Position numbers and translations under genes: made by a program. Below are positions 29,829 through 57,238 of a stretch of 64,000 bases of DNA, piece by piece; position 1 is the stretch's first letter; each line of letters opens with the position of its first letter. The notes below the pieces were generated by a model. That model saw only the letters and a list, made by a program, of their open reading frames with translations. It did not search any database and was not told where the DNA came from. This DNA comes from Parcubacteria group bacterium (GTDB taxonomy: Bacteria > Patescibacteriota > Minisyncoccia > Phycocordibacterales > UBA2135): positions 251,840-315,839 of the forward strand of contig JACPBB010000001.1 in NCBI GenBank assembly GCA_016180525.1, read 5' to 3'.

Positions 29829-29838
29829 AAATATATAT

Positions 29839-31611: not shown

Positions 31612-31624
31612 AAAATAAATACAC

Positions 31625-36366: not shown

Positions 36367-36479
36367 AATAAAAAATTAAAGCTTAAAACAAAAAGTGCAA
36401 AATAGCAATGTAATAAAGCAGAATATTTTGAACTTTGAGTTGTTATTTTAACTTCTGTGTTTTTACATTTTAATTTTAT

Positions 36480-37832: not shown

Positions 37833-37983
37833 CTATGCCTTGTATTATATAATTACTCAAACATAAAATCCCTTGCGACATAAGAACTAATGATGACACA
37901 TAGTGTAACAATGCATTCTATCTGCTTTAGTAATAACTAAAATGAACGAAAGAGAGTCACGGCTAAAAAGTATGAGAAAATTT

Positions 37984-39795: not shown

Positions 39796-39804
39796 AAAAA
39801 ACTA

Positions 39805-40959: not shown

Positions 40960-41828
40960 AGTATCATTCCAAAATCTTTTTCCTTCCACGGTGTTATAAG
41001 AATATCAAGAACATATAATTTCACATACGCCCCGAAGGCAAAAAACATGAAAAAGAAATTCTTAAGCGTTTTTTGCCGTTTCCATTTTCCCCATAAGTGA
41101 AGTGAGCCAAGTTCATATAATAATGTCGGTGGACGACGAAACCACGCAGTCATGGGCGTAAATCCATTTTGTGTTAAAAATTGTTTCAAATTATCTTCAG
41201 AAAATTGAAATAAGTGGTGAGGCGGGGTCAGCACAGACCATGAAATATTAAACCGTTTGTAGAGTTTAAATGTTGTTTTAGCCCAAAAAGAATCGAGATT
41301 TGGTGTTGAAATAACAAGCACTCCAGTACTCTTTAGGACTCTGTGAGATTCAACAAGCAGTTCTTTGGGATTTTTCACGTGCTCAATAATGTCACCCAAG
41401 AAAACAGTGTCAAAAAAATTATCTGCATAGTGAGCATCTTTGAGTGTCCCCTGTTTTACATTGAGTTCGCGTGACCGCGCGATCTCCGCGGTCAATTCAT
41501 TTATTTCCACTCCATACGTCTCAAATCCTCTTTGTTTCGCGAAAAATAAAAAGTCGCCATTTGAGCAGCCGACATCGAGTAGTTTTCCATTTGAAACTGT
41601 CTTCTGTAAATAATTAAGTATTTTTTTAATATGCCGACTTTCTTTTACCGCAAGTTTTTTTCTATGCTTTTGATACCCGGCTTTTTTTGAATAAACCTCC
41701 TCTTGTAAATGCCGCTCATCGGGTTGCGGATTTACAAAAACAAGCCCGCATGCGGGACATTTTTGGTAGCCATACCTGTCTTTTTCAACGAAAAAGGCTG
41801 TTTTATTATTGCATATGAGACAGTTCAT
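40935..41828 (-). CDS. class I SAM-dependent methyltransferase with N-terminal Zn-ribbon
   Basis: CLICNN...CPACG zinc ribbon. LLDVGCSNGDF, VEINE, FDTVFLGDIIEHVKNP, LKSTGVLVIS motifs. Confidence 0.85.
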   Translation of the reverse strand: MNCLICNNKTAFFVEKDRYGYQKCPACGLVFVNPQPDERHLQEEVYSKKAGYQKHRKKLAVKESRHIKKILNYLQKTVSNGKLLDVGCSNGDFLFFAKQRGFETYGVEINELTAEIARSRELNVKQGTLKDAHYADNFFDTVFLGDIIEHVKNPKELLVESHRVLKSTGVLVISTPNLDSFWAKTTFKLYKRFNISWSVLTPPHHLFQFSEDNLKQFLTQNGFTPMTAWFRRPPTLLYELGSLHLWGKWKRQKTLKNFFFMFFAFGAYVKLYVLDILITPWKEKDFGMILCSKKIKN

Positions 41829-42847
41829 GAAAGAAGGCCTATTTTTTGTGCTTCGTTAATAATAGTAAGCACGCGCGCCTTTGTGGAGTGCCGTTTTAAA
41901 ATTTCTTGATATTCTTCTTCTAAATCTTTTTGATTATACCCATTTCGTAAAAACTCTCCCGCTTTTTTGAGTTGATATTCAAAATCATACAAATTATTGT
42001 ATTGAAAAATTCTTTTGTAATTCATCGCGTCGCTGTCAAGCTCAAACAAATCAAAGCGCTCCGCGATAATGAGACAGTTATTTCCTAAGATTTCCCAGAA
42101 GCGGCGCGAGTCATACCCTGCAGCGCCCGTTGAAACGCCGACTTTCGTGCGTGCCCAGATTTCATATGATTTATCGGGTGAATACGGACCCTTATGTATA
42201 AGCGGCAATTTGTATGTTTTCTTTGTGTGACACGTAAATCCATTCTCTGTGCAAAATTTTTGAGTTAACTCCGGAGCATAGCGCCGCGTTAGAGGGTAAA
42301 GCTCTTGCCCAAAAAAACAACTAAAATCAATGTCTTTCTCCTTGTTGGAGTCGTAATATTTCATAAACCGAGATTCAATGCCAAGCGGAAAAGGAATCAT
42401 GCCGTTTGTATATGGCTTTTCGCGCCTGAAATACAGCCGACATTTTTTTTGCATGTCTTTATTTGGGGCACCGAGCCCTTCGTATGCGCCTTTGATTATT
42501 TCGTACTGGATTTTTAGATCGCGCCATCTGTCTTTCCCAATTTCAGAACCGTCAACATAGACTGTCTTTCCCCACCCGTTTAGTTCGTCAATAAACGCTG
42601 TATCGGTGCCATATTTTCCGTACGAGAAAATAATCAGGTCAGCGCCCTTAGCAAACTCCGCCAGTTGTTTTTTGGAAACTCCAAACTGTTTTGTAAAAGC
42701 TTCTCCAAACGGGTGCGGATAATAATCGGGGTAAAAAAATTCAAGTTCTGGATTTTCTTTTTTTAATAAAAACAACCCGTCCAGGACAGTGTCGCAATAA
42801 AAATCATCTCTTTCTGTCGGCGTTACGACCGCAATTTTATACCGCAT
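41825..42847 (-). CDS. hypothetical protein, possible GT-B-like glycosyltransferase (CgeB/DUF-type)
   Basis: 340 aa with a two-domain alpha/beta-looking composition in a tightly overlapping GT operon. No confident motif. Confidence 0.3.
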   Translation of the reverse strand: MRYKIAVVTPTERDDFYCDTVLDGLFLLKKENPELEFFYPDYYPHPFGEAFTKQFGVSKKQLAEFAKGADLIIFSYGKYGTDTAFIDELNGWGKTVYVDGSEIGKDRWRDLKIQYEIIKGAYEGLGAPNKDMQKKCRLYFRREKPYTNGMIPFPLGIESRFMKYYDSNKEKDIDFSCFFGQELYPLTRRYAPELTQKFCTENGFTCHTKKTYKLPLIHKGPYSPDKSYEIWARTKVGVSTGAAGYDSRRFWEILGNNCLIIAERFDLFELDSDAMNYKRIFQYNNLYDFEYQLKKAGEFLRNGYNQKDLEEEYQEILKRHSTKARVLTIINEAQKIGLLS

Positions 42848-43895
42848 GTAATAATTGTGTTATGCGTTTAATAAGATTTTTTAAATCAAAATTTTGTTTT
42901 ACTTGATTATATAAATATTCCTGGATATTCAAAACCTCTTCTTCGCCCTTTATGCAGAGCGAATTTATTTTTTGAGCAAGATCGTTCGCGTCACGCTCCT
43001 TATAGAGCAAAGATTTGCCGTGTATACCAAAAACTTCAGAGAATGCTTTATTTGCCGAAAGCGCCATGGTCCCGCACGCGATACTCTCAAGCACCGCCTT
43101 ATCCATACCACCCGTTGGGGTCAAATTAACCGATATATCTGCTTCTTTATAATAGTCGAGCATGTCGGTATATGAAATTGCACCCTTAAAAAAAACTGAT
43201 TCTGATATGTTTTTTTCTTTAACTAGGGTTTTAAGTTTTTTAAAATACTCAACATCTGTTTTGTACACCGGAGCGCCGATGCACGTAATCATCGCATGAA
43301 TATTGTATTTCCTTTCTAGTGCGTGTGCTGCCTCAAACAAAATCTCTAAATTTTTAATAGGGGTAATTCTGCCGACATGAAGAATCCGAAGCGGCGTATG
43401 AAGTGGCTCATCTTTTTTACGCGTGAAGTGCGCAAAATCAATGCCGTGCCCCAAAAAGTTGACTTTTTTACTTTTAAGACGAAACGCCTCCGGGGTCGTG
43501 CTAAAAACAACGTGCGCTAACTTTTCTGCAATTCGCAATTTCATATTAACCTGTCGGTGCACGTACCACAGTCCAATTTTTTTATTCCACAGTCGCCACA
43601 AGAGTCCGCCGAGAATAATATATTCTGGATTCATATGAACAAAAACAGCATCGTAGCGATTTTTCAAATTCCAAATATATTTATAAAAATTAAAAATGTA
43701 TGAGATTCTTGATGTGCCCCGCTCTTTTCCTAAAGAAAAAATCCCTACGTTGTTGGGTAGAGTATGCACTCCTTTTTCAAGACAAATAACCGTCACGCCT
43801 TCACAGTATTGCGCAAACCGATGGATCCACGGATGAAAAAAGCCGAGGACATCATCTGCCGCATCAACTTTTTGAGTGAGTATTAGAATTCGCAT
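42837..43895 (-). CDS. GT4-like (group 1) glycosyltransferase
   Basis: MRILILTQKVDAADDVLGFFHPW N-terminal domain and C-terminal ...DKAVLESIACGTMALSA GT-B motif. Confidence 0.7.
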   Translation of the reverse strand: MRILILTQKVDAADDVLGFFHPWIHRFAQYCEGVTVICLEKGVHTLPNNVGIFSLGKERGTSRISYIFNFYKYIWNLKNRYDAVFVHMNPEYIILGGLLWRLWNKKIGLWYVHRQVNMKLRIAEKLAHVVFSTTPEAFRLKSKKVNFLGHGIDFAHFTRKKDEPLHTPLRILHVGRITPIKNLEILFEAAHALERKYNIHAMITCIGAPVYKTDVEYFKKLKTLVKEKNISESVFFKGAISYTDMLDYYKEADISVNLTPTGGMDKAVLESIACGTMALSANKAFSEVFGIHGKSLLYKERDANDLAQKINSLCIKGEEEVLNIQEYLYNQVKQNFDLKNLIKRITQLLHAV

Positions 43896-44839
43896 TATGA
43901 AACATCATCGTTCGCACTATTTAAAATCGTGTCTCCATACACCCCGCGCAATAAATCAAGGTCCTTGTTGCTTGAAACGAGCAAGTCAATATTTTTATTC
44001 TTCAGCGCGTCTAAAACCATATGCCCAAACGGGTCATCAATTTCTTTTTTATATATTTCGCTAAAAGCGGCAAAATCTTTTATGAAACAGTGTCCTCCCG
44101 CCCCGCGCCCGCTTTTGTGAACCGGCTCCATATGAAGTTCATACAAAGGAAGCGTTCGTTCCGCCTCGCCGCCTAGAGTTCCGCTTTTGTGGACCGGGTT
44201 CATATGAGATGTCCCGATTCTTGGGTCAGCAATCATTGCATCCCGAATTACCTCCCAGTCGCAGCCAATTTTGTTGGCTAAATCATAAAGCAAATTTATA
44301 TAAATTACTTTAAAATAAAACCAGTTGTTCCCGCCGTATTTAATAAGTTCAGCTTCTTTTGCTTTGCAGACTAAATCAAACTGTGCCTTTGGCAACACAG
44401 ACAAAACCTCTTTTGCTTTTTGTCTGTACTCATCACTCTCTTCTGAAATTCCAATAATATTGCGAAATGGTTGAGACGCGTCTTGCCTCGCGGTGGATTC
44501 GGTTAAAAATTCCGGAGAATGGAAAACAAAGATACCCGGATTCTCTTTTTGTATTGATTCGGTGGTTCCAGGGATAACGGTTGATTTAATAACCGCAATC
44601 TTTCCTTTTCCCACGAGCTTTACCACTTCACGTACGATGCTGTCGTCAAATTTTTGATTGCGAGTAGGAGTCGGAACGGCAATAAACACAATGTCGCAAT
44701 CTCGCACCTTCTCTCTATTTCCGGCATATTCCCTTTCCTGCGCGTAGCGAGTTACCCCATACCCCCTTCGTTCAAAATCATCGGCATAATTTTTGCCTAT
44801 CCAACCCTGTCCTATAAAGCCTATGTGTTGCTTCTGCAT
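43895..44839 (-). CDS. short UDP-glucose/GDP-mannose dehydrogenase-family protein carrying an internal duplication
   Basis: IGFIGQGWIGKNYA NAD-binding start, SPEFLTEST, and catalytic-Cys motif GGHCFIKD. Only 314 aa. Contains a 24-aa internal repeat HMNPVHKSGTLGG / HMEPVHKSGRGAGG. Confidence 0.55.
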   Translation of the reverse strand: MQKQHIGFIGQGWIGKNYADDFERRGYGVTRYAQEREYAGNREKVRDCDIVFIAVPTPTRNQKFDDSIVREVVKLVGKGKIAVIKSTVIPGTTESIQKENPGIFVFHSPEFLTESTARQDASQPFRNIIGISEESDEYRQKAKEVLSVLPKAQFDLVCKAKEAELIKYGGNNWFYFKVIYINLLYDLANKIGCDWEVIRDAMIADPRIGTSHMNPVHKSGTLGGEAERTLPLYELHMEPVHKSGRGAGGHCFIKDFAAFSEIYKKEIDDPFGHMVLDALKNKNIDLLVSSNKDLDLLRGVYGDTILNSANDDVS

Positions 44840-44914
44840 ATGAGTAGTAATTCTTCAGATTATATACTGTATATAAACAAAATACACGCTATTGAGTTGC
44901 ATAGTGGATGTATT

Positions 44915-45433
44915 TTAAAACGATGCCAGGAGTTGTGCAAATTCGTTTAAATTTGAAACTTCCGGAAACTCTGTTTGCTTGATATCGCTGCCGTATTTCA
45001 TTTCTTTCCGTCGCATACGAATCCCGACAATGTGTGGACATTGTTTTTTCATGTTTTGCAGTTGCGCAAAATCGTCATCAAGAAAAATTATTTTTTCTTC
45101 TGCGTGCTTAAATATGCGCTTGATTATATCCCCCTTCATTTCAGTACCGGTAAATATAGATTCTGAAAATAAGTTGAGGATTCCACTTTGTTGAACTTTA
45201 GCTTTTTGATATTTTTTATCGCCAAATGTCACCAAAATGAGACGGTGCTGTGAATGGTTTTTTAAAAAATCCACCGTGTCGGGAAACAAGAACATACCCG
45301 CTTTCCCGTGCTCTTTAAGAATTTTAAGACAGCGGTTGCTGTGTTCAACGCATGAGATATTCTCTAGCCCCATTTCTTTTTTATACTGCTCCGTATTAAA
45401 AAGTGTCCAATCAAAATCCAATAAAATGCGCAT
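44915..45433 (-). CDS. HAD-superfamily hydrolase
   Basis: Motif I DFDWTL (DxDxT) and motif IV FLDDD. Confidence 0.6.
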   Translation of the reverse strand: MRILLDFDWTLFNTEQYKKEMGLENISCVEHSNRCLKILKEHGKAGMFLFPDTVDFLKNHSQHRLILVTFGDKKYQKAKVQQSGILNLFSESIFTGTEMKGDIIKRIFKHAEEKIIFLDDDFAQLQNMKKQCPHIVGIRMRRKEMKYGSDIKQTEFPEVSNLNEFAQLLASF

Positions 45434-45440
45434 ATCAATT

Positions 45441-46448
45441 TTACATTATCTCAATAATAGCCCGCGCGAGCTTGTCCGGGTCATGCCTGATTAAACTCCT
45501 TCGGAGTGTGTCTCCTGATTTTTTCTTCACCTCTTCCGAAGCAAGGAAATCATTTCTAATAATAGCAGCGCTCCCCTCCTCTAAATCATCCGCGATGGGA
45601 AATTCTTTCTGCGCGTAGTATGCCTCAAGAATATCCTCCGGCAGATTATTATTATTTACAAGGACATAGTCTGGGTTTCGACCTGTATACTGTATCAGTT
45701 CAGTGAGGTGGTCATTTGCAGTAAAATTATGCGTTTGTCCGTACTTGCTCATAAGGTTCAAAACAAAAAGTAATTTTCCTTTTGAGCTCACGAGCGCTTC
45801 TTTTGTCCCTGGCACCACAACGCTCGCAAGAATGCTCGTATAAAGGTCCCCAGGACCCATAATGATAAGGTCTGCGCTTGCTATTGCCTCGCGTGCCCTT
45901 TCCGATATGCGCGCTTCCGGCTCTATCCAGAGGCGTTTAATTTTTTGCGTTCCGTCATGGCTCTCGGGCGGCTCATCAATGTAGGTCTCCCCTTTTACCG
46001 TATGGCCGCTTTCATACTCCGCGGCCAAAGTAATTTTTTCACTGGTAACCGGAAGCACTCTGCCACGCACGCGAAGCATTTGGGAGGCATATTCAATCGC
46101 GCGCTCTTCTGAGCCGAAAATATCGGTGAGAGCAACTAAAAATAAATTGCCGAAATTGTGTCCCTTGAGCCCCTCCCCTTTATCAAAACGGTGGAGAAAA
46201 AGCGAGCGTAGGGCATTTCCCACCTCGCTGTCGTCAGCAAGCGCGACAAGCGCCATGCGAAAATCGCCAACGGGCAAGTACCCGAATTCATCCCGCAGTC
46301 GCCCCGTAGAGCCTCCACTGTCAGCAACGGTTACAATCGCCGTTAAATCAAAAAGGTCTGGAGGGTATTTTTTTAATCCGGACAAAACAGTGTATGTCCC
46401 CGTCCCCCCTCCAATAACCACTATATTTTTTTGTCTTTTCGTAAACAT
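45441..46448 (-). CDS. YvcK/gluconeogenesis-factor family protein (UPF0052, CofD-like, UDP-sugar binding)
   Basis: IVVIGGGTGTYTVLSGLK...TAIVTVADSGGSTGRLRDEFGYLPVGD is typical of YvcK. Confidence 0.85.
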   Translation of the reverse strand: MFTKRQKNIVVIGGGTGTYTVLSGLKKYPPDLFDLTAIVTVADSGGSTGRLRDEFGYLPVGDFRMALVALADDSEVGNALRSLFLHRFDKGEGLKGHNFGNLFLVALTDIFGSEERAIEYASQMLRVRGRVLPVTSEKITLAAEYESGHTVKGETYIDEPPESHDGTQKIKRLWIEPEARISERAREAIASADLIIMGPGDLYTSILASVVVPGTKEALVSSKGKLLFVLNLMSKYGQTHNFTANDHLTELIQYTGRNPDYVLVNNNNLPEDILEAYYAQKEFPIADDLEEGSAAIIRNDFLASEEVKKKSGDTLRRSLIRHDPDKLARAIIEIM

Positions 46449-46500
46449 ATCTTGTATTCATCATAACTCTTTATGCTTACAAAAAGTACCTGACACAATT

Positions 46501-47337
46501 TTATATTTGCTTTCCTATTATCGATTCTAATTTTGAAGTGTAGCCTTGTTTTTCGATCGAAATAATTCCATCCGAATAAACTGGGTCGGAGCACTTAAGA
46601 GGAAGCCATATATAACTTTTAGTATCCAATCTATAGCATTTAAAATCTGAAGATTTTTCTAATGGAGGTAACGGTCTTTTAATATCATCAATCATTAAAG
46701 TGAAATCATTATAAAAATCTGGGAAGACGTAGATGGCTTGAGCATTAATATAGTCAACGACAGAGCAATATTTATTGCTACCGCCAACAGAGCATTGAGA
46801 ACTAAATTCGTTACTAGTAGCTAAATACATTAACAAAATTTCATCCCCTTCTCCTAGTTGTGTAAGGTTAAGTGTGCATTTACGGTTGACACAATTATTA
46901 AATTCTGCGCTTTTCAATATTTTTTCTTCGGCTTTTAATTCAATTGGGCCCTCTTGAATCAATCCATTCATAAATTCTAATTTGATGTTTTTTGCTTTTC
47001 TCGGGCTAGAGTTTGTTATGTATATAGAATATGCTGAGCAACTACCTTCACATAATATAAAATCAGGGTTGATTATCCCTTTTCCAGACTTATTTTTGTC
47101 CACATTTTGTATTGCCGTCAAAGTGCCATAACCATATTGAGTGGTGAATAGATAATTTACATCGTTGATCGTTGAATTCTCTACTAATTTTGTTTCGGTA
47201 ACAGATATTTCAATCGCAGGGTCTGCAAAAAATTTTCCTAGAAAATTTTTTGTCTTTGAGTTTATCGGATCTTCAAATACTGCATAGAGTGCTATTGTAA
47301 CGATAACCCCGATAATAAAATATAGCGCATTTCTCAT
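46501..47337 (-). CDS. hypothetical membrane-anchored/secreted Cys-rich protein
   Basis: N-terminal TM anchor (ALYFIIGVIVTIALYAV), then a Cys/Asn/Ser-rich domain. The gene is visibly AT-richer than its flanks. Confidence 0.5.
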   Translation of the reverse strand: MRNALYFIIGVIVTIALYAVFEDPINSKTKNFLGKFFADPAIEISVTETKLVENSTINDVNYLFTTQYGYGTLTAIQNVDKNKSGKGIINPDFILCEGSCSAYSIYITNSSPRKAKNIKLEFMNGLIQEGPIELKAEEKILKSAEFNNCVNRKCTLNLTQLGEGDEILLMYLATSNEFSSQCSVGGSNKYCSVVDYINAQAIYVFPDFYNDFTLMIDDIKRPLPPLEKSSDFKCYRLDTKSYIWLPLKCSDPVYSDGIISIEKQGYTSKLESIIGKQI

Positions 47338-47377
47338 ATTATTTTAAAAAATTGGTGCCAGGTACCTTTTTCATTTT

Positions 47378-48445
47378 CTATTTTCTGTGGTTTAACAGGC
47401 ATTGTTCAAAAGATTGTTTATACAAACGCAAATATTCTTCTTTATCTTTATAAGGATACTTGTATTCTAAAGGTTTGGGAAGTTCTTTTTTATAAAGCCG
47501 CAGGAGTATCTCTCCCAGTGACTGCGGGGTGTGTTCCGCGATATACGCCCCGACTTCATGGGCAACGCCTACATCAGTAGCAACAACTGGAATACCGGCA
47601 ACTCGCGCCTCAACCATCTGCAATCCATACCCTTCATACCACGAGGTTACAAGAAGCGCATCCGCGCCTTTATAATATCCCGCGACATCATTTTGCCAAC
47701 CGAGAAAAAGAACGTTATTTTGTAACTTGTAACGTGTAACTTGTAACTCAGGGTCGTTACGCTCCGAGCCGTCGCCGATGATGACAAGGCAAGAATTTGG
47801 AACATGCCTTTGGAATATATTAAACGCTTCTAGCGCAAGCATCGGATTTTTTTCTTTTTCAAGCCGCCCCACCCAGAGAATCGTGAAATCGTACCGTTTT
47901 GGTAAAGATGTTGGTTGCGCATTTTTAATTTTTTCTGCGTCTATCCAAATAGGCAGGACCGCGCAGCTTGTAGCTTGTAGCTTGTAGCTTGTAGCAAGAG
48001 AATTTTTTATTTTTTCACTAACCACGCGAATGCAATCCGCCCTCAAAAGAGTGCGCCGCAAAAACATTTTTCGGATGAAATTTTTTATGCTCGCCCTGGC
48101 AAAATACGGAGAGAAAACATCCGTATGAACTTGCAGTTGTAATTTTGCGTTTAAAGCTGACGCAAGGCGTGAGGCAATGAACCCTGTTTCAAACGGGTCT
48201 TGCGCTGTCACAATATCAATATCGCCCCGCACTCGTTTAACAATATTACCAATACCCCACAAAGAACTAAGCGGCTCATGAAAAACAAAAACGTTTGGAG
48301 AGATGCGTTCTTCTTTATATTTTCCAATCGAAATTACACAAATATAAAGATTTTCAAATAATTTCCCATATTCAACCATCCGCGCACGCACAGCGCTTCC
48401 TTTGTCAAAAATCTTCGCATCCCGTGAGAGCATTAAAACTTTCAT
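47378..48445 (-). CDS. GT4 (group 1) glycosyltransferase containing two heptanucleotide repeat tracts
   Basis: GRLEKEKNPMLALEAF...GDGSERNDPE...YEGYGLQMVEARVAGIPVVATDVG. Carries (TTGTAAC)x4 at about 47720-47747 and (CTTGTAG)x4 at about 47967-47994. Confidence 0.85.
   Translation of the reverse strand: MKVLMLSRDAKIFDKGSAVRARMVEYGKLFENLYICVISIGKYKEERISPNVFVFHEPLSSLWGIGNIVKRVRGDIDIVTAQDPFETGFIASRLASALNAKLQLQVHTDVFSPYFARASIKNFIRKMFLRRTLLRADCIRVVSEKIKNSLATSYKLQATSCAVLPIWIDAEKIKNAQPTSLPKRYDFTILWVGRLEKEKNPMLALEAFNIFQRHVPNSCLVIIGDGSERNDPELQVTRYKLQNNVLFLGWQNDVAGYYKGADALLVTSWYEGYGLQMVEARVAGIPVVATDVGVAHEVGAYIAEHTPQSLGEILLRLYKKELPKPLEYKYPYKDKEEYLRLYKQSFEQCLLNHRK
47720..47747. repeat. heptanucleotide tandem repeat TTGTAAC x4 (third unit GTGTAAC) inside a GT4 coding sequence
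   Basis: ttgtaacttgtaacgtgtaacttgtaac encodes LQVTRYKLQ. Confidence 0.9.
47967..47994. repeat. heptanucleotide tandem repeat CTTGTAG x4 inside the same GT4 coding sequence
   Basis: cttgtagcttgtagcttgtagcttgtag encodes ATSYKLQATS. Confidence 0.9.
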
Positions 48446-49494
48446 TATTTTAGTTTATTCTCAAATACATATTTCAGAAATGAATCAAATTTGAGATATT
48501 TCATGAACGTATCGCGAGCTAATGTTTGCTTCTTTTTAAATTCTTCGTCTGACATACCGTCCCAGAATTTCCTTATATATTTGTCCGTGTTTTTAATATC
48601 GGTATACGGCACAAACACAACAAATTTTTTATAATCTATTTCGCCTTCGCTGGGCAGCATCCATTCGGTATCAATTAAAACGGGAATTCTTCCTAATGCC
48701 AGTGTCTCATAAAACCGAACCGCCATATTCGCATCTCCGCGAACTATGAGTACAAAGTCAGAATTCCTGATGTTCCCAATATATTCTTTCCGTAATACCA
48801 TTGGGTCGCCTTGTACCGTATTTTTATTTGCTGAATAAAAGTTTCTTATCAAAAAAGAGGTTTTGATAAGCCGTGAATTTTGTAAGGCGGCAATTGCCCT
48901 TTTCCTCCAATAAATTCCTTGCTTGTGAACTTCGGCGTATCGGCTGCGAAAAATATATTTTTTCACATCAAGAGGAATTGTTTTTGAAAGATATTTTAAT
49001 CTCTGCCGCAGAGAATTGAGCTCAGCCCAGCCACAAAAACTCACTACAGGTATTTCTTTTTTATTACGAAGATAAAATAAATCATTTGCGAGGATATCGC
49101 TCGCGTAGATTTGTGTCGGGGTGATAATTTCATTTTCCGCTGCCCCCCGATATCTATATCCGGCATATCGGAAAAAAAGCGTATGCGGTAAATAAAATTG
49201 CTCGTCAGAATCAACGAGGGCAAACGCAAGAATCTTTTTATTGTGTCTCTGCGCAAGCTCAACAAAATGGCTGATATATGTCTTATTGTTTCTGAGCGTG
49301 GGATATGTATAGGGAATGAGGATAAAATCAGCACCTTCCGGTTTGCTTACAACTGTTATAAAACTGAAATCCATCTCATCAAAAATCGCCCTATACGGCT
49401 TCTTGCCTTCATACGGAGGAATTTTAAGCTCGCGGTTCAAGAACCGCAACGGCTTGCCGCCGGGAAATAGTTCACCAATATAGACCTTGGCCAT
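48445..49494 (-). CDS. GT47 (exostosin-like) family glycosyltransferase, paralog 2
   Basis: FVLIVRGDANMAVRFYETLALGRIPVLIDTEWMLPSEGEIDYKKFVVFVPY matches the exostosin motif. Collinear similarity to 21773-22939 throughout (ADFILIPY / ILAFALVDSDE / FFRYAGYRY...ENEIITP). Confidence 0.55.
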   Translation of the reverse strand: MAKVYIGELFPGGKPLRFLNRELKIPPYEGKKPYRAIFDEMDFSFITVVSKPEGADFILIPYTYPTLRNNKTYISHFVELAQRHNKKILAFALVDSDEQFYLPHTLFFRYAGYRYRGAAENEIITPTQIYASDILANDLFYLRNKKEIPVVSFCGWAELNSLRQRLKYLSKTIPLDVKKYIFRSRYAEVHKQGIYWRKRAIAALQNSRLIKTSFLIRNFYSANKNTVQGDPMVLRKEYIGNIRNSDFVLIVRGDANMAVRFYETLALGRIPVLIDTEWMLPSEGEIDYKKFVVFVPYTDIKNTDKYIRKFWDGMSDEEFKKKQTLARDTFMKYLKFDSFLKYVFENKLK

Positions 49495-49538
49495 ATAAAG
49501 AATTTCTAATTCACCTAATAAAATGTTTAACGCAAAAA

Positions 49539-51071
49539 TTAGAGCAATGTAACCAGTGATTCTATCGCTTTTTCTTTTGAAAACGATTTTGCCTTTTCTA
49601 TCCCGTTTTTTATCAGGTCGTTTCGCATGGCCCCATTCTTAAGAAGAGTTTTGACAGCGTTTTTGATTTCACTCTTGTCATTATATGAAACAAGCAGGCC
49701 CTCTTTTTGGTTCTCTATAAGCTCCGAGTTTCCTCCGATATTAGTCGTAATAATAGGGGTTCCGAGCGCCATTACTTCAAGCAATTGATGAGAAAACCCC
49801 TCATAGCCGGTATTGAGCACAAAGATATCGGCGGCTCGTATATATTCCGTAAGCATGCCAGATGACAATCTGCCGACTAAAAAAACTACATCTTGTAACT
49901 TGTAACTTGTAACTTGTAACTTGAGTGTTTCCCGCTCCGGTCCGTCTCCGGCTATATATAATTTAATATCGGGAATTTCTTTTTTTAGTTCAGCGATAAC
50001 GTCAATGAGCGCGGAAAATCCTTTCCACGGCACAAGCCGCCCCGCAGAAAAAATTACTGTTCCGTGCATTCCCAATTTTTCCCTTACGTTTTCTTTGGGC
50101 GCTAACGAAGCCGAAAACTCAAACGAATTATAAATGACTTTGATTTTCAGGCCTTCAATTCCCCACTGTTGTACGATTTTTTTGAGATATTCACTCGGCA
50201 CAACAATATGGCCTGCGTTTCGCGCGACAAGATGCTCAATTTTTCTCCGAGCTTCCGTCACGAAATCAAATTTTCTTTCTTGAAACTCCTCTGGCGTAAT
50301 AAATTTTCCATCGGTGTTTTTCATTTTTCGCTTTTCATTTTGCACTTGATACTGTTCCCACGCGTAGTCTCCCGCGATGCGTAACAAAAATTTTTTTCTA
50401 AGCAGTTTGGACACAATAAGCGCGGGAAATCCAACGCTTACCGGGTCAAGTGCGTATATAATTTCAGCTTCTGTGGCCCTAAAGCAAATAATTAAAAAAT
50501 AAACGAGGTGTCGAATAATTTTAGGCAGCTTGCGAACACTGCTAAAAGATACAATCGTAATGTGAATATTGCGACTTGGAAGCTCTGTTTCAAGAAGTTT
50601 TGCGTACGTAGCCGGGCCACCGATATCAGGAGGATAGAGCGGAGTGGCTAGGAGGACTCTCCCTTTCTGAGTGTGATTAAAAATAATATTTCCATATATA
50701 AAAAATGTTACGACCGCGATGGCGCCTGAAGAAAATACCTGCGCAAGCATGTACCAGAGGCCTGCAACAGAAACAAGTACGTACATAAAAAGGGCGTTCG
50801 CGGCAAGCCCCGTGAGCGCGGTTATAAGATATAGGGCGACTTGCCGTGAAATATCGTGCGTATGAGTATTTTTAAATGTCCATAATTTCTGCAACAGAAA
50901 GCTCGCAAAAAACGCGAAAACAAACGCAATCGTTGAGGAGAGAAGATACCACAGACCAACGATGTCAGTAAGCACATATAAAAAACTAAGCGATACAAAG
51001 GCCGCTATTCCTCCCGCAATTAGATATCGCGCGATTTTATTTTGAATAAATTTTAAAAACATAATTTTCAT
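49539..51071 (-). CDS. GtrA-like membrane domain fused to a GT4 glycosyltransferase; contains a heptanucleotide repeat tract
   Basis: N-terminal 4-TM GtrA-like segment (IARYLIAGGIAAFVSLSFLYVL...) followed by a GT4 domain (...GDGPERETL...GFSHQLLEVMALGTPIITTNIGG). (CTTGTAA)x4 at about 49892-49919 encodes KLQVTSYKLQ. Confidence 0.75.
   Translation of the reverse strand: MKIMFLKFIQNKIARYLIAGGIAAFVSLSFLYVLTDIVGLWYLLSSTIAFVFAFFASFLLQKLWTFKNTHTHDISRQVALYLITALTGLAANALFMYVLVSVAGLWYMLAQVFSSGAIAVVTFFIYGNIIFNHTQKGRVLLATPLYPPDIGGPATYAKLLETELPSRNIHITIVSFSSVRKLPKIIRHLVYFLIICFRATEAEIIYALDPVSVGFPALIVSKLLRKKFLLRIAGDYAWEQYQVQNEKRKMKNTDGKFITPEEFQERKFDFVTEARRKIEHLVARNAGHIVVPSEYLKKIVQQWGIEGLKIKVIYNSFEFSASLAPKENVREKLGMHGTVIFSAGRLVPWKGFSALIDVIAELKKEIPDIKLYIAGDGPERETLKLQVTSYKLQDVVFLVGRLSSGMLTEYIRAADIFVLNTGYEGFSHQLLEVMALGTPIITTNIGGNSELIENQKEGLLVSYNDKSEIKNAVKTLLKNGAMRNDLIKNGIEKAKSFSKEKAIESLVTLL
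49892..49919. repeat. heptanucleotide tandem repeat CTTGTAA x4 inside a GT4 coding sequence
   Basis: cttgtaacttgtaacttgtaacttgtaa. Same unit as in gene 47378-48445. Confidence 0.9.
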
Positions 51072-52258
51072 GATGCTGTTTCAAAAATATGTTTCATTGT
51101 GTTAGCAATTTTATTCCAATCGTGTTTTTCTGTAGCAACTTCACGAGCATTTTTAACAATAGTACTTATCGCTTCTTTGTGCTTCGGATTGATAATAAAA
51201 TCTACTTGATCTGCAACGCTTTTGGGGTCTTTTACTCCGCATATAAACCCGGTTTCTCTGTCTTTTAGAAAGTCTACTATGCCGCCAACGGCTGTTCCGA
51301 TAACCGGAATTCCCGCGGCCATCGCCTCAATAAAAGAATTGCCCATACCCTCCGAAAGAGAGGGACGAACAAAAATATCCGAAGATTTAAGATATGGTGG
51401 AACTTTTTTCCCGTCAATAAATCCCAAAAAATGAACTCTGCGCGAAACACCCACATCTTCCGCGAGTTTTTTGAGCATCCGCTCATCAGGCCCAACCCCG
51501 AGTACAATAAAATGAACGGTTTCTGGTAAATATCTAAGCGCCTTTATAACATCATCAACGGCGTTCTTCTTCACCAGCCGTGATGTCGTAATTAAAGCCT
51601 TATCTTTTTCCTGTATTTTTAAACTTTTTCGTAGCTCCTCTGTTTTATGTTTTTCGATTTGCGTTTTGAATTTTTCTACATCTACCCCATTCGGCACAAC
51701 GGAGCTCTTCCCTTTAAACCCCATTTTCCTTCCCCATTTTTCAAGAAACGAAGATTCGCCGACGAGATGGTCGGCAAGCGCAAATCCCCTTACAAACAAA
51801 GGCCATGCAGGCAACATTGTGCGTTCTATGTATTCGGGAGGATCTCCCTCTTGAAGCGTTAGAACATAAAAAACGTCTCTATAAAATGTTTTAAAAAGAC
51901 CGGCAGGAATTCCTGCAGAGTGTGCCATCATAGCCCACATGCCGTCAAAGTGGTGTGTGCGATGAAGCGCGGCCCCTTTTAAAAAAGCGAGAATCTGAAA
52001 AATATATTTGTTGAGGTGCAAAGGAAATAGGCGGAAATCGGCAGAGTTTGGACTCATTTTTGCAAAACCGATGCGATGCACAAAAACATTTCCAACCTTT
52101 TCTGATTTTGGCAGTGCCTTGTCAAACCGCGCAGTCACCATGTGAAACTCAAATTCATCAGGAGAAATTCTGTCCGTGATTTCTTTTATGGCGACTTCCG
52201 CACCCCCCACAAACGGATAATACGCAAGAGAAAATATAAGAACTTTCTTTGGTGTCAT
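51068..52258 (-). CDS. GT4 (group 1) glycosyltransferase
   Basis: VLIFSLAYYPFVGGAEVAI N-terminus and C-terminal EGMGNSFIEAMAAGIPVIGTAVGG. Confidence 0.85.
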   Translation of the reverse strand: MTPKKVLIFSLAYYPFVGGAEVAIKEITDRISPDEFEFHMVTARFDKALPKSEKVGNVFVHRIGFAKMSPNSADFRLFPLHLNKYIFQILAFLKGAALHRTHHFDGMWAMMAHSAGIPAGLFKTFYRDVFYVLTLQEGDPPEYIERTMLPAWPLFVRGFALADHLVGESSFLEKWGRKMGFKGKSSVVPNGVDVEKFKTQIEKHKTEELRKSLKIQEKDKALITTSRLVKKNAVDDVIKALRYLPETVHFIVLGVGPDERMLKKLAEDVGVSRRVHFLGFIDGKKVPPYLKSSDIFVRPSLSEGMGNSFIEAMAAGIPVIGTAVGGIVDFLKDRETGFICGVKDPKSVADQVDFIINPKHKEAISTIVKNAREVATEKHDWNKIANTMKHIFETAS

Positions 52259-52357
52259 TGATTAATGATAACACGACTGTATTCTATAACGTTTTCTGTT
52301 GCTGCTCATTGTTATCAATACTATTTTTAAAGAATGACCCACTTTGAGTAAGTAATT

Positions 52358-53317
52358 TTAACGAATCCACTGTAACTTTTTTATAAAAATAGAGCGGCTA
52401 TTTGCGCTGATGGATCGTTCTATGGCCTCAAGGACCCTTACTGTTGCAATCCCGTTTTTTATATCCGTTTTTGGTTTTTTGTTTGTTTTTATCATTGTGA
52501 GAAACGCTTTGAGTTCAGCTGTAAGCGGAAGGATTTTATTGTATGACGGGTGCGTAATGATTTCTTTTCCTTGTTTTGTGACATTATTTCTTTTTTTTAG
52601 CCCAACGTTTTTGTATACAGTTATTTTTTTCTTCGCCATTTCATCAAAAACAATCGTGCTTTTTTCTCCAACAATCGTCATTCGTTTTCTTTTTTCAGGA
52701 AACATCCAAGAGTTAAACATAAACGCTATTGTGCCGTTTTTAAAATATAGTTTGGCATATGTCGTATCATACAACGTACTTTTTGAACGCATATGCGACA
52801 CCTCCCAACCTAGAACGCGTATCGGGCTTTCCAGAAGTAAATCCAAAAGCATGTAAACATCGTGCGAGCCCCAATCCCACAAAACTGATACATCCTCGCG
52901 AACGGGTCCGCTGCTACAACCCTCGCTAAAAATATATCTTATTTTACCAATATGTTTTGCAAGCTGTTTTGTTTTAAGGTATGCCGGGTTGTAGAGATGT
53001 AGATGCCCTACAAATACACGCGCGCCGCTTTTACGCGCGGCGCGCGCAAGCACTAGTGCCTCCGCAACGTTTGTCACCATCGGTTTTTCAATAAAAACCG
53101 AAAGACCTTTTTTAATAAACGGGAGCGCGACTTTTGCGTGAGTAGCGGCAGGAGTTGCCACAATAACCGCATCAATGTCTTCCTTGTTTAAAAGAGTACT
53201 ATAATCGTATTCTGCTATATATGAAACAGTAACACTCTCTAATATTTTGAGGGTGCCAATGATCTTTTTTCCCCAGCGTCCCGCTCCAATAACCGCGACC
53301 CTTGTTCGTTTTATCAT
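52358..53317 (-). CDS. Gfo/Idh/MocA-family NAD(P)-dependent oxidoreductase (sugar-nucleotide dehydrogenase-like)
   Basis: RVAVIGAGRWGKK Rossmann N-terminus, ...DAVIVATPAATH..., EKPM motif. Confidence 0.85.
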   Translation of the reverse strand: MIKRTRVAVIGAGRWGKKIIGTLKILESVTVSYIAEYDYSTLLNKEDIDAVIVATPAATHAKVALPFIKKGLSVFIEKPMVTNVAEALVLARAARKSGARVFVGHLHLYNPAYLKTKQLAKHIGKIRYIFSEGCSSGPVREDVSVLWDWGSHDVYMLLDLLLESPIRVLGWEVSHMRSKSTLYDTTYAKLYFKNGTIAFMFNSWMFPEKRKRMTIVGEKSTIVFDEMAKKKITVYKNVGLKKRNNVTKQGKEIITHPSYNKILPLTAELKAFLTMIKTNKKPKTDIKNGIATVRVLEAIERSISANSRSIFIKKLQWIR

Positions 53318-53361
53318 TGAGGATTATTATCCCAATTCTTGCCTCTTATACAAAGCGTGTG

Positions 53362-54441
53362 TTAATTACCCTGAGTATAACTTGGATCATTTTTGCACCA
53401 CTCTATAAACTGCTCAAGTCCTTCCTTAAGAGAAACGTGTGGGGTAAAGCCAAGGTCATTCCGCGCTTTAGAAACATCCGGGCAGCGTCTCTGGGGTTCC
53501 CCCGCGGGGTAAGTTTCCGGATATGCTATAAGGTCATAAGAAATTTTGTTATCAAAAAGAGAAGTGAACAGCTCGGCGAGGTCTTTCATGCTTATTTCAT
53601 TTTCATCATTACCAATATTATATGGATGTCCCGGTTTGCCCTTAAGAAGTACGAGCAAAAATCCGGTAATCGCGTCCGTAATATAACAAAAAGTGCGCGT
53701 CTGATGTCCGTCTCCGTGTACCGGTAGGGGCTCGTTATTAAGGGCTCGGAACGCGAACATCGGAAGCACTCGGTGATCGTTATGAGACATGCCTGGGCCA
53801 AAGACGTTAAATGGCCGAACGATTGTTGTGGGAATACCGTATTGCTGCTCATAAATTGTGGCAATGGTCTCGCCGAGACGCTTTGATTCATCGTAGCAGG
53901 CCCGCGGACCAACTGACGAAACATACCCATGATATGTCTCCTGTGTCGGAACAGCTTTCGGGTCCGGGTCTCCGTATATTTCACTTGAACTGAAAAAAAG
54001 AAATCCCTCAAGGTGGTCTTTATTTTTTCGCGCAAGCTCAAGCAGATTCTTTACTCCGAAAACAGTGCCTTCAATCGTTTCAAGCGGATATTTTTTGTAA
54101 TACACGGGAGAAGCAAGGCCGGCCCCGTTTATTATAAAGTGAACATCCTCCCTCACCGGAAGCGGGTAGGTGACATCTGCCCATACCTCAAGAACGTCAG
54201 GTCGACCCTGATAATTAAAATGCGGATGGCGAGCCCCCGTAATATAGTTATCAACAGAAATAACGCGACACGGTTTAGAAAAAACGTTGTCATTCAAATA
54301 GGCAAGTGTGCCAACGATGTACTTTCCGAGAAAACCGCCACCGCCACTCATGAGAATTGTTTTCCCTTCAAACTTTTTTGCTTCTTCTCCAAGATTTTTC
54401 GCAATAGTCGCTATATCTTTTTTTACGATTTCTTGAGACAT
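53362..54441 (-). CDS. UDP-glucuronate decarboxylase / UXS-like extended SDR (ArnA-dehydrogenase-like)
   Basis: ILMSGGGGFLG; ETIEGTVFGVKNLLELARK, SSEIYGDP, GPRACYDESKRLGE and RPFNVFGPGM closely parallel UXS motifs (KTIKTNVIGT..., STSEVYGDP, GPRACYDEGKRVAE, RIFNTYGPRM). Start placed at ATG (MSQEIV); the track start is a GTG. Confidence 0.8.
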   Translation of the reverse strand: MSQEIVKKDIATIAKNLGEEAKKFEGKTILMSGGGGFLGKYIVGTLAYLNDNVFSKPCRVISVDNYITGARHPHFNYQGRPDVLEVWADVTYPLPVREDVHFIINGAGLASPVYYKKYPLETIEGTVFGVKNLLELARKNKDHLEGFLFFSSSEIYGDPDPKAVPTQETYHGYVSSVGPRACYDESKRLGETIATIYEQQYGIPTTIVRPFNVFGPGMSHNDHRVLPMFAFRALNNEPLPVHGDGHQTRTFCYITDAITGFLLVLLKGKPGHPYNIGNDENEISMKDLAELFTSLFDNKISYDLIAYPETYPAGEPQRRCPDVSKARNDLGFTPHVSLKEGLEQFIEWCKNDPSYTQGN

Positions 54442-54518
54442 ATGTTTAGAAAAAATTAAATGGAATAATATACAATACTGTAACTGGAAAATGCCCACAA
54501 AAGCAACTTTGCCGCGCG

Positions 54519-55706: not shown

Positions 55707-55757
55707 ATAAATACAACAATACCATTCAAGCAGATGTCCGCCAAGACACCCACGCAA

Positions 55758-57170: not shown

Positions 57171-57204
57171 TGAACTAGATTCTAGCAAACTATGTATTAT
57201 TTTC

Positions 57205-57238
57205 AAGAAAAAACGTCTGAAGAAATTACTTCAGACGT
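57205..57238 (-). terminator. rho-independent terminator after the NYN-domain gene
   Basis: ACGTCTGAAG-AAATTA-CTTCAGACGT 10-bp stem. On the minus strand it is followed by TTTTTTCTTG. Confidence 0.7.

What the first reader, a model, noticed from the sequence alone, without database searches (positions are those of the whole stretch)
47720..47994. Two heptanucleotide tandem-repeat tracts (TTGTAAC x4 and CTTGTAG x4) inside a GT4 glycosyltransferase gene: candidate phase-variation switch
The same 7-bp unit is tandemly repeated four times at two positions within gene 47378-48445, and again in a different GT4 gene at 49892-49919. A 7-bp unit is not a multiple of three. Gain or loss of one unit by slipped-strand mispairing would therefore frameshift the gene: the ORF is intact at n=4 (28 bp) and would be out of frame at n=3 or n=5. 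This is the classic architecture of contingency loci that switch glycosyltransferases on and off in Haemophilus, Neisseria, Campylobacter and Helicobacter. The identical DNA unit at three sites in two genes argues for a repeat-driven mechanism rather than conservation of the encoded YKLQ peptide. Phase-variable surface glycan genes in a CPR-like organism would be notable.
Basis: partly seen in the sequence, partly recalled or inferred. Interest (0 to 1): 0.8.

Follow-up and report, generated by a model that had tools for sequence, protein, structure and literature searches.

The report
Slippery 7-base repeats inside glycosyltransferase genes
Two sugar-transferase genes of an uncultured Parcubacteria (CPR) bacterium carry short in-frame 7-base tandem repeats, and gain or loss of such repeats is seen to break the matching genes in related wild populations, so they probably act as on/off switches for the cell-surface glycan.

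Summary
The three heptanucleotide tracts are real. They are the only perfect or near-perfect tandem repeats of three or more units in the 64-kb window, at any period from 4 to 15. On the coding (minus) strand they read (CTACAAG)x4.4, (TTACAAG)x4.1 and (TTACAAG)x4.6. They lie in two GT4 genes of a glycan-synthesis cluster.

They are not insertions in a linker. Each encodes the end of a surface helix plus the loop before the next beta-strand, with no length change against 40 homologs.

The pattern is general in Parcubacteria-type GT4 genes:
- In 414 kb of related loci, period 7 gives 34 of the 35 perfect repeats of four or more units, all in GT4 ORFs.
- 60 of 240 GT4 homologs carry heptamer-periodic peptides, against 0 of 120 neighbouring YvcK homologs.
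- Orthologs keep the tract position and length, but the unit sequence changes in concert.

Related populations show a -7 nt allele that splits the GtrA-GT4 ortholog, a -7 nt allele that splits the gene A ortholog, and a -21 nt in-frame allele at the site corresponding to the window's gene B tract (site 2).

Slipped-strand on/off variation is therefore well supported for this class of tract. For this genome itself there is no read-level evidence. All three tracts are in the ON state.

The parts
47965..47995 (-). Heptanucleotide tract 'site 1' in GT4 gene A. The sense strand reads (CTACAAG)x4.4, perfect, and encodes ATSYKLQATS (aa 150-160).
   Evidence: TRF; sequence; codons. The AF2 model places it at the C-terminal end of helix 144-154 plus the loop before strand 161-163. 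There is no gap against 40 homologs. The L120 ortholog has a non-repeat sequence here. Logan contigs L211, L212, L214 and L215 all end inside this tract.
47720..47748 (-). Heptanucleotide tract 'site 2' in GT4 gene A. The sense strand reads TTACAAG TTACACG TTACAAG TTACAA(A) and encodes LQVTRYKLQ (aa 233-241).
   Evidence: TRF (4.1 copies, 90% matches); codons. It covers helix 230-238 plus the loop before strand 245-247. It follows the GDG strand, with no gap against homologs. It is identical in Logan contigs L211 and L212.
47378..48445 (-). GT4 (GT-B fold, retaining-type) glycosyltransferase gene A, 355 aa, intact.
   Evidence: Pfam Glycos_transf_1 and Glyco_transf_4. AF2 mean pLDDT 94.6. Foldseek top hits are MshA, BshA and BA1558. 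Its start codon overlaps the stop codon of the upstream GT47-like gene by 1 nt.
49892..49923 (-). Heptanucleotide tract in GtrA-GT4 gene B at the position equivalent to site 2. The sense strand reads (TTACAAG)x4.6, perfect, and encodes KLQVTSYKLQ (aa about 381-390).
   Evidence: TRF; sequence; codons. There is no gap against 40 homologs. The L120 ortholog has TTGAAAG (TTGCAAG)x3 at the same place. L213 reads through it unchanged, while L214 and L215 start inside it.
49539..51071 (-). GtrA-like membrane domain fused to a GT4 glycosyltransferase (gene B), 510 aa, intact.
   Evidence: Pfam GtrA_DPMS_TM plus Glycos_transf_1. Its start overlaps the upstream GT4 gene 51068-52258 by 4 nt.
50317..50341 (-). 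Decayed heptamer tract in gene B, in the loop after DYAWEQ, encoding QNEKRKMKN. In a related lineage the orthologous site carries the polymorphic (ATTTCCA)x4.3 / x3.3 tract.
   Evidence: TRF (period 7, 3.6 copies, 77% matches). Orthologous tracts and the -7 nt allele are shown.
48445..49494 (-). GT47/exostosin-like glycosyltransferase between the two tract-bearing genes. It carries no tract. It lies on the same strand and is tightly packed, so it is probably translationally coupled to gene A.
   Evidence: Pfam; coordinates. The same gene order is seen in L120, L123 and L124.
34211..57206 (-). Surrounding glycan-biosynthesis cluster. It holds six GT4/GT1-family genes, sugar epimerases/dehydratases, UDP-glucose dehydrogenases, a carbamoyltransferase, methyltransferases, YvcK/CofD and an LTD/PKD surface protein.
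   Evidence: Pfam.

Best explanation
The three tracts are hypermutable heptanucleotide simple-sequence repeats embedded in frame in two GT4 glycosyltransferase genes.

Each tract encodes a structurally tolerant segment: the end of a surface helix plus the loop into the next beta-strand. The protein therefore works at the current unit number. [shown]

Slipped-strand mispairing during replication adds or removes one 7-nt unit. This shifts the frame and ends translation 5 to 40 codons downstream, before the EX7E motif. The enzyme is lost, and expression of the tightly packed downstream genes is possibly affected. [the consequence is shown by simulation; slippage is inferred for this genome and observed as natural alleles in orthologs]

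A second slip restores the frame. [inferred from the concerted evolution of repeat units]

The result is heritable, stochastic ON/OFF variation of individual steps of surface-glycan synthesis. In this genome all three tracts are in the ON state.

The same architecture recurs at three or four fixed positions of the GT-B fold in many Parcubacteria-type GT4 genes. That the variation is adaptive, for example against phage or in host attachment, is speculation.
For: (1) Frameshift logic was verified for all three tracts.

(2) Natural length alleles exist in orthologous clusters.
- (ATTTCCA) is x4.3 in seven assemblies (intact 521 aa) and x3.3 in L123. L123 is 99.1% identical to L124 over 5.1 kb, with the 7-nt gap as the only indel, and its gene is split into 263 + 273 aa.
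- (AACCTAC) is x5.1 in L123, L124 and L134 (intact 387 aa) and x4.1 in L129, where the gene is split into 104 + 279 aa.
- L217 differs from L218 (97.7% identity) by a single 21-nt in-frame deletion exactly at site 2.

(3) Units change in concert, which requires repeated unit gain and loss.
- Window TTACAAG against L120 CTACAAG and TTGCAAG at the same sites.
- (CAAAATA)x3.3 against (CAAGATA)x3.3 between 99%-identical contigs.
- ATSYQLPATS against TTNYQLPTTN, and NLKSQISNLK against NFKFQISNLK, within 90%-identity clusters.

(4) The signal is specific to period 7 and to GT genes.
- In 414 kb of related loci, perfect repeats of 3 or more units number 48 at period 7, against 8, 1, 0, 0 and 3 at periods 4, 5, 6, 8 and 9. 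At 4 or more units the counts are 34 at period 7 against 1.
- Density is 34.9 per 100 kb in GT4 ORFs against 4.4 in other ORFs. At 4 or more units the split is 34 against 0.
- Most of the 'other' ORFs are a second GT-B family.
- Heptamer-periodic peptides occur in 60 of 240 GT4 homologs, against 0 of 120 YvcK homologs.

(5) The tracts sit in tolerant positions, with no indel against homologs.

(6) Heptanucleotide SSRs are accepted mediators of phase variation in H. influenzae. These include an intragenic (AATTTTG)14 tract with a frameshift. That survey used a detection threshold of 3 units (PMC2651432).
Against: - No copy-number variant was found for this genome. A window-specific flank pattern found nothing in metagenome contigs.
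- Gene A site 2 is identical in two Logan contigs and the gene B tract is identical in one.
- The tracts have only about 4 units, so slippage rates may be low.
- None of the 89 tracts inside GT4 ORFs (96 tracts examined) in the 80 metagenomic loci is frameshifted. OFF alleles are therefore rare in population consensus sequences, unlike classical contingency loci.
- The two -7 nt alleles were found by looking for truncated cluster members, which is an ascertainment bias, and each rests on one assembly.
- Gene A site 2 is already interrupted by a point mutation.
- The same heptamer also occurs in other phyla inside apparently essential genes and in intergenic arrays. A heptamer tract alone therefore does not imply a switch.
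Confidence: 0.6

Rival explanations
1. The tracts are tolerated, self-homogenising microsatellites with no switching role. A general bias of bacterial replication towards heptanucleotide repeats seeds them. They survive only in unconstrained helix-loop segments. The occasional +/-7 nt alleles are ordinary deleterious mutants on their way to loss.
For: - Heptamer SSRs are over-represented in many bacterial genomes (Mrazek 2007, as cited in PMC4692102 and PMC4679880).
- (CTTGTAR) repeats of 3 or more units occur in more than 119 loci of many phyla. These include intergenic arrays and in-frame copies in LeuRS-, Der- and UvrC-like ORFs.
- OFF alleles are rare: none at the 89 tracts inside GT4 ORFs (96 tracts examined) in 80 loci.
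- The tracts are short (3 to 5 units).
- Some tracts are visibly decaying, such as 50317-50341 and gene A site 2.
Against: - Tracts are 8-fold enriched in GT genes over neighbouring ORFs, and 34 against 0 at 4 or more units. There are none in 120 YvcK homologs.
- Perfect periodicity persists at the same sites across orthologs of 45-69% identity, with concerted unit changes. Homogenisation by single-unit steps passes through frameshifted states. These would be purged if loss of the gene were simply deleterious.
Confidence: 0.3
2. The shared repeats serve as short homology patches for recombination or gene conversion between GT4 paralogs or alleles, shuffling donor- and acceptor-binding modules, rather than as frameshift switches.
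For: - Gene A site 2 and the gene B tract carry the same unit, in the same reading frame, at the equivalent fold position.
- Site 1 lies at the boundary between the N- and C-domains.
- Close relatives differ by local replacement of a non-repeat segment with a repeat-encoded one of similar length, as in P0267 against P0264.
- L125 carries a divergent (about 85% identity) gene A allele next to a 99%-identical gene B.
Against: - In L120 and in the related lineage the two paralogs carry different units, so shared homology is not maintained.
- 28-32 bp is short for RecA-dependent exchange.
- No chimeric gene with a junction at a tract was found.
- The length variants actually observed are unit indels, not exchanges.
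Confidence: 0.06
3. The repeat-encoded peptide (YKLQ-type motif) is itself the selected feature, and the DNA periodicity is a by-product.
For: The same peptide, LQ[AV]TSYKLQ, recurs at the same site in several homologs of 40-60% identity.
Against: - More than 30 different heptamers, encoding unrelated peptides, occupy the same sites.
- Unit changes are concerted across first, second and third codon positions, including synonymous ones.
- Site 1 is non-repetitive in the closest ortholog.
- Site 2 can lose 7 residues while the ORF stays intact.
Confidence: 0.02

Closest known systems
SSR-mediated phase-variable glycosyltransferase genes of Haemophilus, Neisseria and Campylobacter (for example lgtA/C/G, lic2A, lex2 and polyG tracts in capsule/LOS genes). 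Based on established knowledge and PMC2651432.
   Same: An intragenic tandem repeat has a unit length that is not a multiple of three. Unit gain or loss by slippage frameshifts a surface-glycan glycosyltransferase. Several such genes lie in one cluster.
   Different: - The unit here is 7 nt, not 1 or 4 nt.
- There are only 3 to 5 units.
- The tracts lie mid-gene, at fixed structural positions, rather than near the 5' end.
- There can be up to three tracts per gene.
- The organism is a free-living or episymbiotic CPR bacterium, not a host-adapted pathogen.
- OFF alleles are rare in consensus sequences.
- No rates have been measured.
Heptanucleotide SSRs of H. influenzae: hmw1A/hmw2A promoter repeats and the intragenic (AATTTTG)14 tract in hmw1a of strain PittAA (PMC2651432; PMC8262952 listed).
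   Same: The unit length is also 7 nt. The PittAA case is intragenic and is associated with a frameshift.
   Different: Those tracts are long (13 to 38 units) and mostly lie in promoters, where they modulate transcription. They occur at single loci, not across a protein family.
Over-represented heptamer repeats in bacteria: TAACTGA direct repeats of Beggiatoaceae, Cyanobacteria and Bacteroidetes (PMC4679880); GGGNATC repeats of Xanthomonas and Nostoc (PMC4692102); cyanobacterial STRR heptamers (from memory: Mazel 1990).
   Same: Period 7 predominates. Sets are short, with a preference for about 4 units. One strand carries stop codons and the other is translatable. TAACTGA differs from the unit here in the same register (TAACTTG) at two positions. 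The distribution crosses phyla.
   Different: Those repeats are mainly intergenic and have been proposed to act on translation or through G-quadruplexes. Here the tracts are inside ORFs, in frame, specific to a gene family, and shown to vary by whole units with frameshift consequences.

Membership tests
SSR-mediated phase-variable (contingency) locus | A tandem simple-sequence repeat lies inside the ORF (or promoter), with a unit length that is not a multiple of 3. | tested here: met
   Three period-7 tracts of 4.1 to 4.6 units lie inside two ORFs.
SSR-mediated phase-variable (contingency) locus | A change of one unit abolishes the full-length product. | tested here: met
   Simulated +/-7 nt changes give stops at aa 165-175, 245-263 and 392-425, all before the EX7E motif.
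SSR-mediated phase-variable (contingency) locus | Repeat number is polymorphic among close relatives or within a population, at these very tracts. | tested here: inconclusive
   The flank-pattern scan found no other copies. Gene A site 2 and the gene B tract are unchanged in the Logan contigs that cross them. Four k=31 Logan contigs end in the site 1 tract, and two of them (L214, L215) also start in the gene B tract. This could reflect length heterogeneity or assembler limits.
SSR-mediated phase-variable (contingency) locus | Repeat number is polymorphic at equivalent tracts of orthologous genes. | tested here: met
   Two -7 nt alleles split the genes. One -21 nt in-frame allele lies at site 2. 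Unit replacement is concerted between 99%-identical contigs.
SSR-mediated phase-variable (contingency) locus | Switching is reversible and occurs at high frequency (a measured rate). | not testable with these tools
   This needs read pileups, single-cell or culture data. Reversibility is inferred only from concerted evolution.
SSR-mediated phase-variable (contingency) locus | The tracts are associated with surface or interaction functions, and SSRs are enriched in such genes. | tested here: met
   The genes lie in a glycan cluster. Tract density is 34.9 per 100 kb in GT4 ORFs against 4.4 in other ORFs. Heptamer-periodic peptides occur in 0 of 120 YvcK homologs against 60 of 240 GT4 homologs.
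CAZy GT4 / GT-B fold glycosyltransferase (the host genes) | The protein has two Rossmann-like domains, Glycos_transf_1 and Glyco_transf_4 profiles, and an EX7E motif. | tested here: met
   Pfam E-values are 2e-27 and 2e-42. The AF2 model has pLDDT 94.6. Foldseek matches MshA, BshA and PimA. The motifs YEGYGLQMVEA and YEGFSHQLLEV are present.
Intergenic heptamer direct repeats (TAACTGA-type / STRR) | The repeats are predominantly intergenic, often just upstream of start codons. | tested here: not met
   All three tracts are internal to ORFs, in the translatable orientation. 89 of 96 related tracts are inside GT4 ORFs.

The most novel reading that the evidence does not exclude
Parcubacteria-type CPR bacteria maintain a family-wide system of heptanucleotide contingency tracts at three or four fixed surface positions of the GT-B fold of their GT4 (and a second GT-B family) glycosyltransferases. 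The tracts are kept repetitive by continual unit gain and loss. Each cell lineage can therefore stochastically switch individual glycosylation steps and generate combinatorial surface-glycan diversity. This would be the first phase-variation system described for the Candidate Phyla Radiation, and it would be built on an unusual unit length.
Probability: 0.45. Interest if true: 0.75.

Novelty: new variant of a known kind. Interest (0 to 1): 0.66.

Why it matters
CPR/Patescibacteria are ultrasmall, mostly uncultured episymbionts. Their surface is their interface with hosts and phages, and almost nothing is known about how they vary it.

If these tracts are real switches, phase variation is not confined to host-adapted pathogens. 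It would give a simple, sequence-readable marker of surface-glycan heterogeneity in metagenomes, namely unit counts at defined positions of GT4 genes.

It also has a practical consequence. GT4 genes of these organisms that appear 'split' or 'truncated' in MAGs may be OFF phase variants rather than pseudogenes or assembly errors.

The gene-family-specific persistence of period-7 repeats also bears on the old, unexplained over-representation of heptanucleotide repeats in bacteria.

Tried and rejected
- A literature search for the repeat itself and for the encoded peptides found nothing.
- Searches combining CPR/Patescibacteria terms with phase variation, heptanucleotide or tandem repeat found no relevant paper.
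- A window-specific flank pattern with a variable gap found 0 hits in metagenome contigs. The nearest protein homologs are only 61-69% identical, so no strain panel exists for this lineage.
- L130 (P0279) looked like a gene split at a tract but is a scaffold gap of Ns. It was discarded.
- P0268/P0270 split within the EX7E region, not at a tract. P0297/P0298 are a two-module fission. The P0250 frameshift is not at a tract. None was counted.
- The contig of P0303 (89% YvcK relative) does not reach gene A.
- Logan contigs break at the two perfect tracts. This was considered as evidence of length heterogeneity, but the break points (27 to 30 periodic nt) do not fit a simple k=31 graph expectation. 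It is left as inconclusive.
- The idea that the repeat is an insertion in a linker was rejected by alignment and model.
- An adapter or index artefact (TruSeq index CTTGTA, from memory) was considered and rejected. The repeat is tandem and in frame, and it is present in independent assemblies and in complete isolate genomes.
- A link to REP/RAYT or IS200/IS605 cleavage tetranucleotides (GTAG, TTAC) was noted only as a resemblance and was not tested.
Full report
**1. The observation**

The window belongs to an NCBI MAG labelled 'Parcubacteria group bacterium' (contig of 344,533 bp). Tandem Repeats Finder reports three period-7 arrays:
- 47720-47748: TTGTAAC x4.1, one mismatch.
- 47965-47995: AGCTTGT x4.4, perfect.
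- 49892-49923: CTTGTAA x4.6, perfect.

A two-unit pattern allowing one mismatch gives 9 matches, all inside these tracts. Shuffles predict 0.07. For periods 4 to 15, the only perfect tandem repeats of three or more units in the 64 kb are the two perfect heptamer tracts. Only period 7 gives a sliding-window signal.

The host genes are on the minus strand:
- Gene A is a 355-aa GT4 glycosyltransferase at 47378-48445. It carries two tracts.
- Gene B is a 510-aa GtrA-GT4 fusion at 49539-51071. It carries one tract.
- A GT47-like gene lies between them.

On the sense strand the units read CTACAAG or TTACAAG and encode ATSYKLQATS, LQVTRYKLQ and KLQVTSYKLQ. This strand has no stop codon in any frame. 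The complementary strand has a stop every 21 nt.

Both genes sit in a glycan-synthesis cluster of about 23 kb that holds six GT4/GT1-family genes. Logan contigs from three SRA runs are 100% identical to the window here, so the tracts are not an assembly artefact.

**2. Anatomy**

The repeat-encoded segments are not insertions. Alignment with 40 homologs of each gene shows no gap at any of the three sites.

An AlphaFold2 model of gene A has mean pLDDT 94.6. It matches the GT4 enzymes MshA, BshA and BA1558. The model places the tracts as follows:
- Site 1 (aa 150-160) is the end of helix 144-154 plus the loop before strand 161-163. This is the last beta-alpha-beta unit of the N-domain.
- Site 2 (aa 233-241) is helix 230-238 plus the loop before strand 245-247. 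It follows the GDG strand directly.
- The gene B tract is at the position equivalent to site 2.

Adding or deleting 7 or 14 nt at any tract produces a stop at aa 165-175, 238-270 or 392-425. All of these lie upstream of the EX7E motif. A change of +/-21 nt restores the frame, with 7 residues more or fewer.

**3. The repeats are a DNA-level, dynamic feature**

L120 is a syntenic cluster from a relative (GT4, GtrA-GT4, GT47, GT4, YvcK; proteins 61-69% identical). It has tracts at the same places and of the same length, but with other units:
- At gene A site 2, L120 reads CTACAAG CTAAAAA CTACAAG CTACAAG, where the window reads TTACAAG.
- In gene B, L120 reads TTGAAAG (TTGCAAG)x3, where the window reads (TTACAAG)x4.6.
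- At site 1, L120 is non-repetitive.

The differences fall on the same unit position in every copy. They therefore hit first, second and third codon positions alike. Only repeat homogenisation explains this, not peptide selection.

The same concerted change is seen between contigs that are 99.1% identical. L123 and L125 carry (CAAAATA)x3.3, while L124, L129 and L134 carry (CAAGATA)x3.3. It is also seen within 90%-identity protein clusters: ATSYQLPATS against TTNYQLPTTN, and NLKSQISNLK against NFKFQISNLK.

**4. The phenomenon is general and specific to GT genes**

A peptide scan looked for stretches of 8 or more residues that can only arise from 7-nt periodic DNA.
- It hits 60 of 240 GT4 homologs, with more than 30 different heptamers at recurring positions.
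- It hits 0 of 120 homologs of the neighbouring YvcK/CofD gene, over a similar number of residues.

80 related metagenomic loci were fetched, 414 kb in total. Perfect tandem repeats of three or more units number 48 at period 7. At periods 4, 5, 6, 8 and 9 they number 8, 1, 0, 0 and 3. At four or more units the counts are 34 at period 7 and 1 at period 9.

89 of the 96 period-7 tracts lie inside GT4-like ORFs, on the sense strand and in frame. Density is 34.9 per 100 kb in GT4 ORFs and 4.4 in other ORFs. At four or more units the split is 34 to 0. Most of the 'other' ORFs turned out to be a second GT-B family, with a tract after a conserved LSLGK motif.

The tracts cluster at about 350-400, 575-630 and 770-890 nt before the stop codon. 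These are fixed positions of the fold.

**5. Unit-number variation in nature**

One related lineage was sampled in about nine assemblies.
- The GtrA-GT4 ortholog has (ATTTCCA)x4.3 and is intact (521 aa) in L124 to L128, L133 and L134.
- In L123 the same tract is x3.3. L123 differs from L124 by 38 substitutions and this single 7-nt gap over 5.1 kb. Its gene is split into 263 + 273 aa.
- The gene A ortholog has (AACCTAC)x5.1 and is intact (387 aa) in L123, L124 and L134.
- In L129 that tract is x4.1, and the gene is split into 104 + 279 aa.

In another lineage, L217 and L218 are 97.7% identical and differ by one indel. It is a 21-nt in-frame deletion exactly at site 2, changing KDLRLKIKDLRMEN to KDLRMEN.

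These are the alleles that slipped-strand mispairing predicts. MEGAHIT contigs built at k=141 are unlikely to collapse a 30-36 nt tract, but each allele rests on one assembly.

**6. What could not be shown**

For this genome itself no variant was found. A flank pattern with a variable gap returned nothing. Gene A site 2 is unchanged in L211 and L212, and the gene B tract is unchanged in L213.

Four k=31 Logan contigs end inside the perfect site 1 tract. Two of them (L214, L215) also start inside the perfect gene B tract. This fits length heterogeneity in those runs. However, the break points (27 to 30 periodic nt) do not match a simple graph expectation, so I leave it as inconclusive.

Frameshifted alleles are rare overall. 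None of the 89 tracts inside GT4 ORFs (96 tracts examined) in the 80 loci is frameshifted. I found the two -7 nt alleles by searching for truncated cluster members, which biases the sample.

**7. Interpretation**

The best-supported reading is that these are slippage-prone heptanucleotide repeats that toggle GT4 genes between an intact and a frameshifted state. All three are currently in the ON state.

The main argument that this is more than a tolerated microsatellite has two parts. One is the gene-family specificity. The other is the long-term persistence of perfect periodicity at fixed sites. Homogenisation by single-unit steps must pass through frameshifted intermediates. This is hard to reconcile with constant purifying selection on these genes.

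The main rival keeps the same mutational mechanism but denies a selected switching role. I give it 0.3. Its support comes from the short tracts, the rarity of OFF alleles, and the wide occurrence of heptamer repeats in bacteria (PMC4692102, PMC4679880). Recombination-joint and peptide-function readings are poorly supported.

**8. Relation to known systems**

Frameshift phase variation of glycosyltransferases by simple-sequence repeats is classical in Haemophilus, Neisseria and Campylobacter. Heptanucleotide units are known in H. influenzae, in the hmw promoters and in one intragenic (AATTTTG)14 tract with a frameshift. That survey used a detection threshold of three units (PMC2651432).

What differs here:
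- the unit length is used as a rule rather than as an exception;
- the copy number is low;
- the tracts lie mid-gene at fixed structural sites, with up to three per gene;
- the units evolve in concert;
- the host is a CPR bacterium.

I found no paper that links CPR/Patescibacteria with phase variation or heptanucleotide repeats. The library searched is incomplete. I therefore rate the finding as a new variant of a known kind.

Noticed in passing
The hosts are very diverse: Pseudomonas, Alcanivorax, Acidobacteriota, Bacteroidota, Chloroflexi, Saccharibacteria and other CPR. Copy number ranges from 3 to 14, often mixed with the one-base variants CTCGTAG, CTTGCAG and CTCGTAA. Many copies are intergenic and form inverted arrays around a spacer (for example L025, L027, L047, L050, L087, L088). 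Alcanivorax-type copies share a conserved left flank, 'cccgggaacttttcgggtttc..atccaa.caagcgtag'. Some copies lie in frame in LeuRS-like (L026, L092), Der-like (L015) and UvrC-like (L059) ORFs of MAGs; I assigned those gene identities from sequence motifs by eye, not by a search.
   Followed up: partly
window 31040-31230: This intergenic region is packed with short repeats: (TCTAATTAA)x3.7, then (TAAATCC)x4.6, and about 70 nt further on the inverted array (TTTAGAA / GGATTTA)x4.6. Two heptamer arrays in opposite orientation could form a long hairpin. It resembles the intergenic inverted heptamer arrays seen in other phyla.
   Followed up: no
window 29835-29895 and 31620-31712: A direct repeat of about 60 nt occurs in two intergenic regions 1.8 kb apart. 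It contains several 'ATGCGAAA' boxes (atgcgaaaa.agcgaaatctatgcgaaatgtgcgaaattatgaattttcttttcg). The second copy is followed by an inverted version. It may be a shared operator or promoter element.
   Followed up: no
window 20290-20327: A weak period-7 stretch (TTTTGCG-like) lies at the 3' end of ORF 20288-21661, next to the gap that separates it from ORF 18335-20242. It is the only other period-7 signal in the window.
   Followed up: no
L138 5389-5414, L142 3401-3429, L182 6538-6556, L193 3374-3395: A second GT-B-like family (N-terminus 'KLLIITQKVDENDD.LGFFH.W') carries heptamer tracts at its own fixed site, right after a conserved 'LSLGK'. The units differ between loci: NNYQLRITNYEL, ENSEIRNQKSEI, DELSAISYKLRAF.
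   Followed up: partly
proteins P0149, P0150, P0153, P0264, P0296: In several two-module GT4 proteins the site 2 tract is interrupted by a 7-8 residue insert, 'SAGEAGL' or 'PAGEAGL' (KSKISNLSAGEAGLKINENV). The same insert recurs after NGVD in the first module of P0296. It looks like a small mobile or palindromic in-frame insertion.
   Followed up: no
L189 1991-2017: A large ATPase-like ORF of 649 aa (its family was not checked by a search) carries a (CAAGAAT)x3.9 tract encoding QESRIKNQE in its low-complexity C-terminal tail. It is one of the few non-GT genes with a heptamer tract.
   Followed up: no
L125 versus L124: Within one lineage the GtrA-GT4 gene is 99.3% identical between contigs, while the adjacent GT47 and gene A ortholog are only about 85% identical. 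This mosaic structure suggests allele exchange within the glycan cluster.
   Followed up: no
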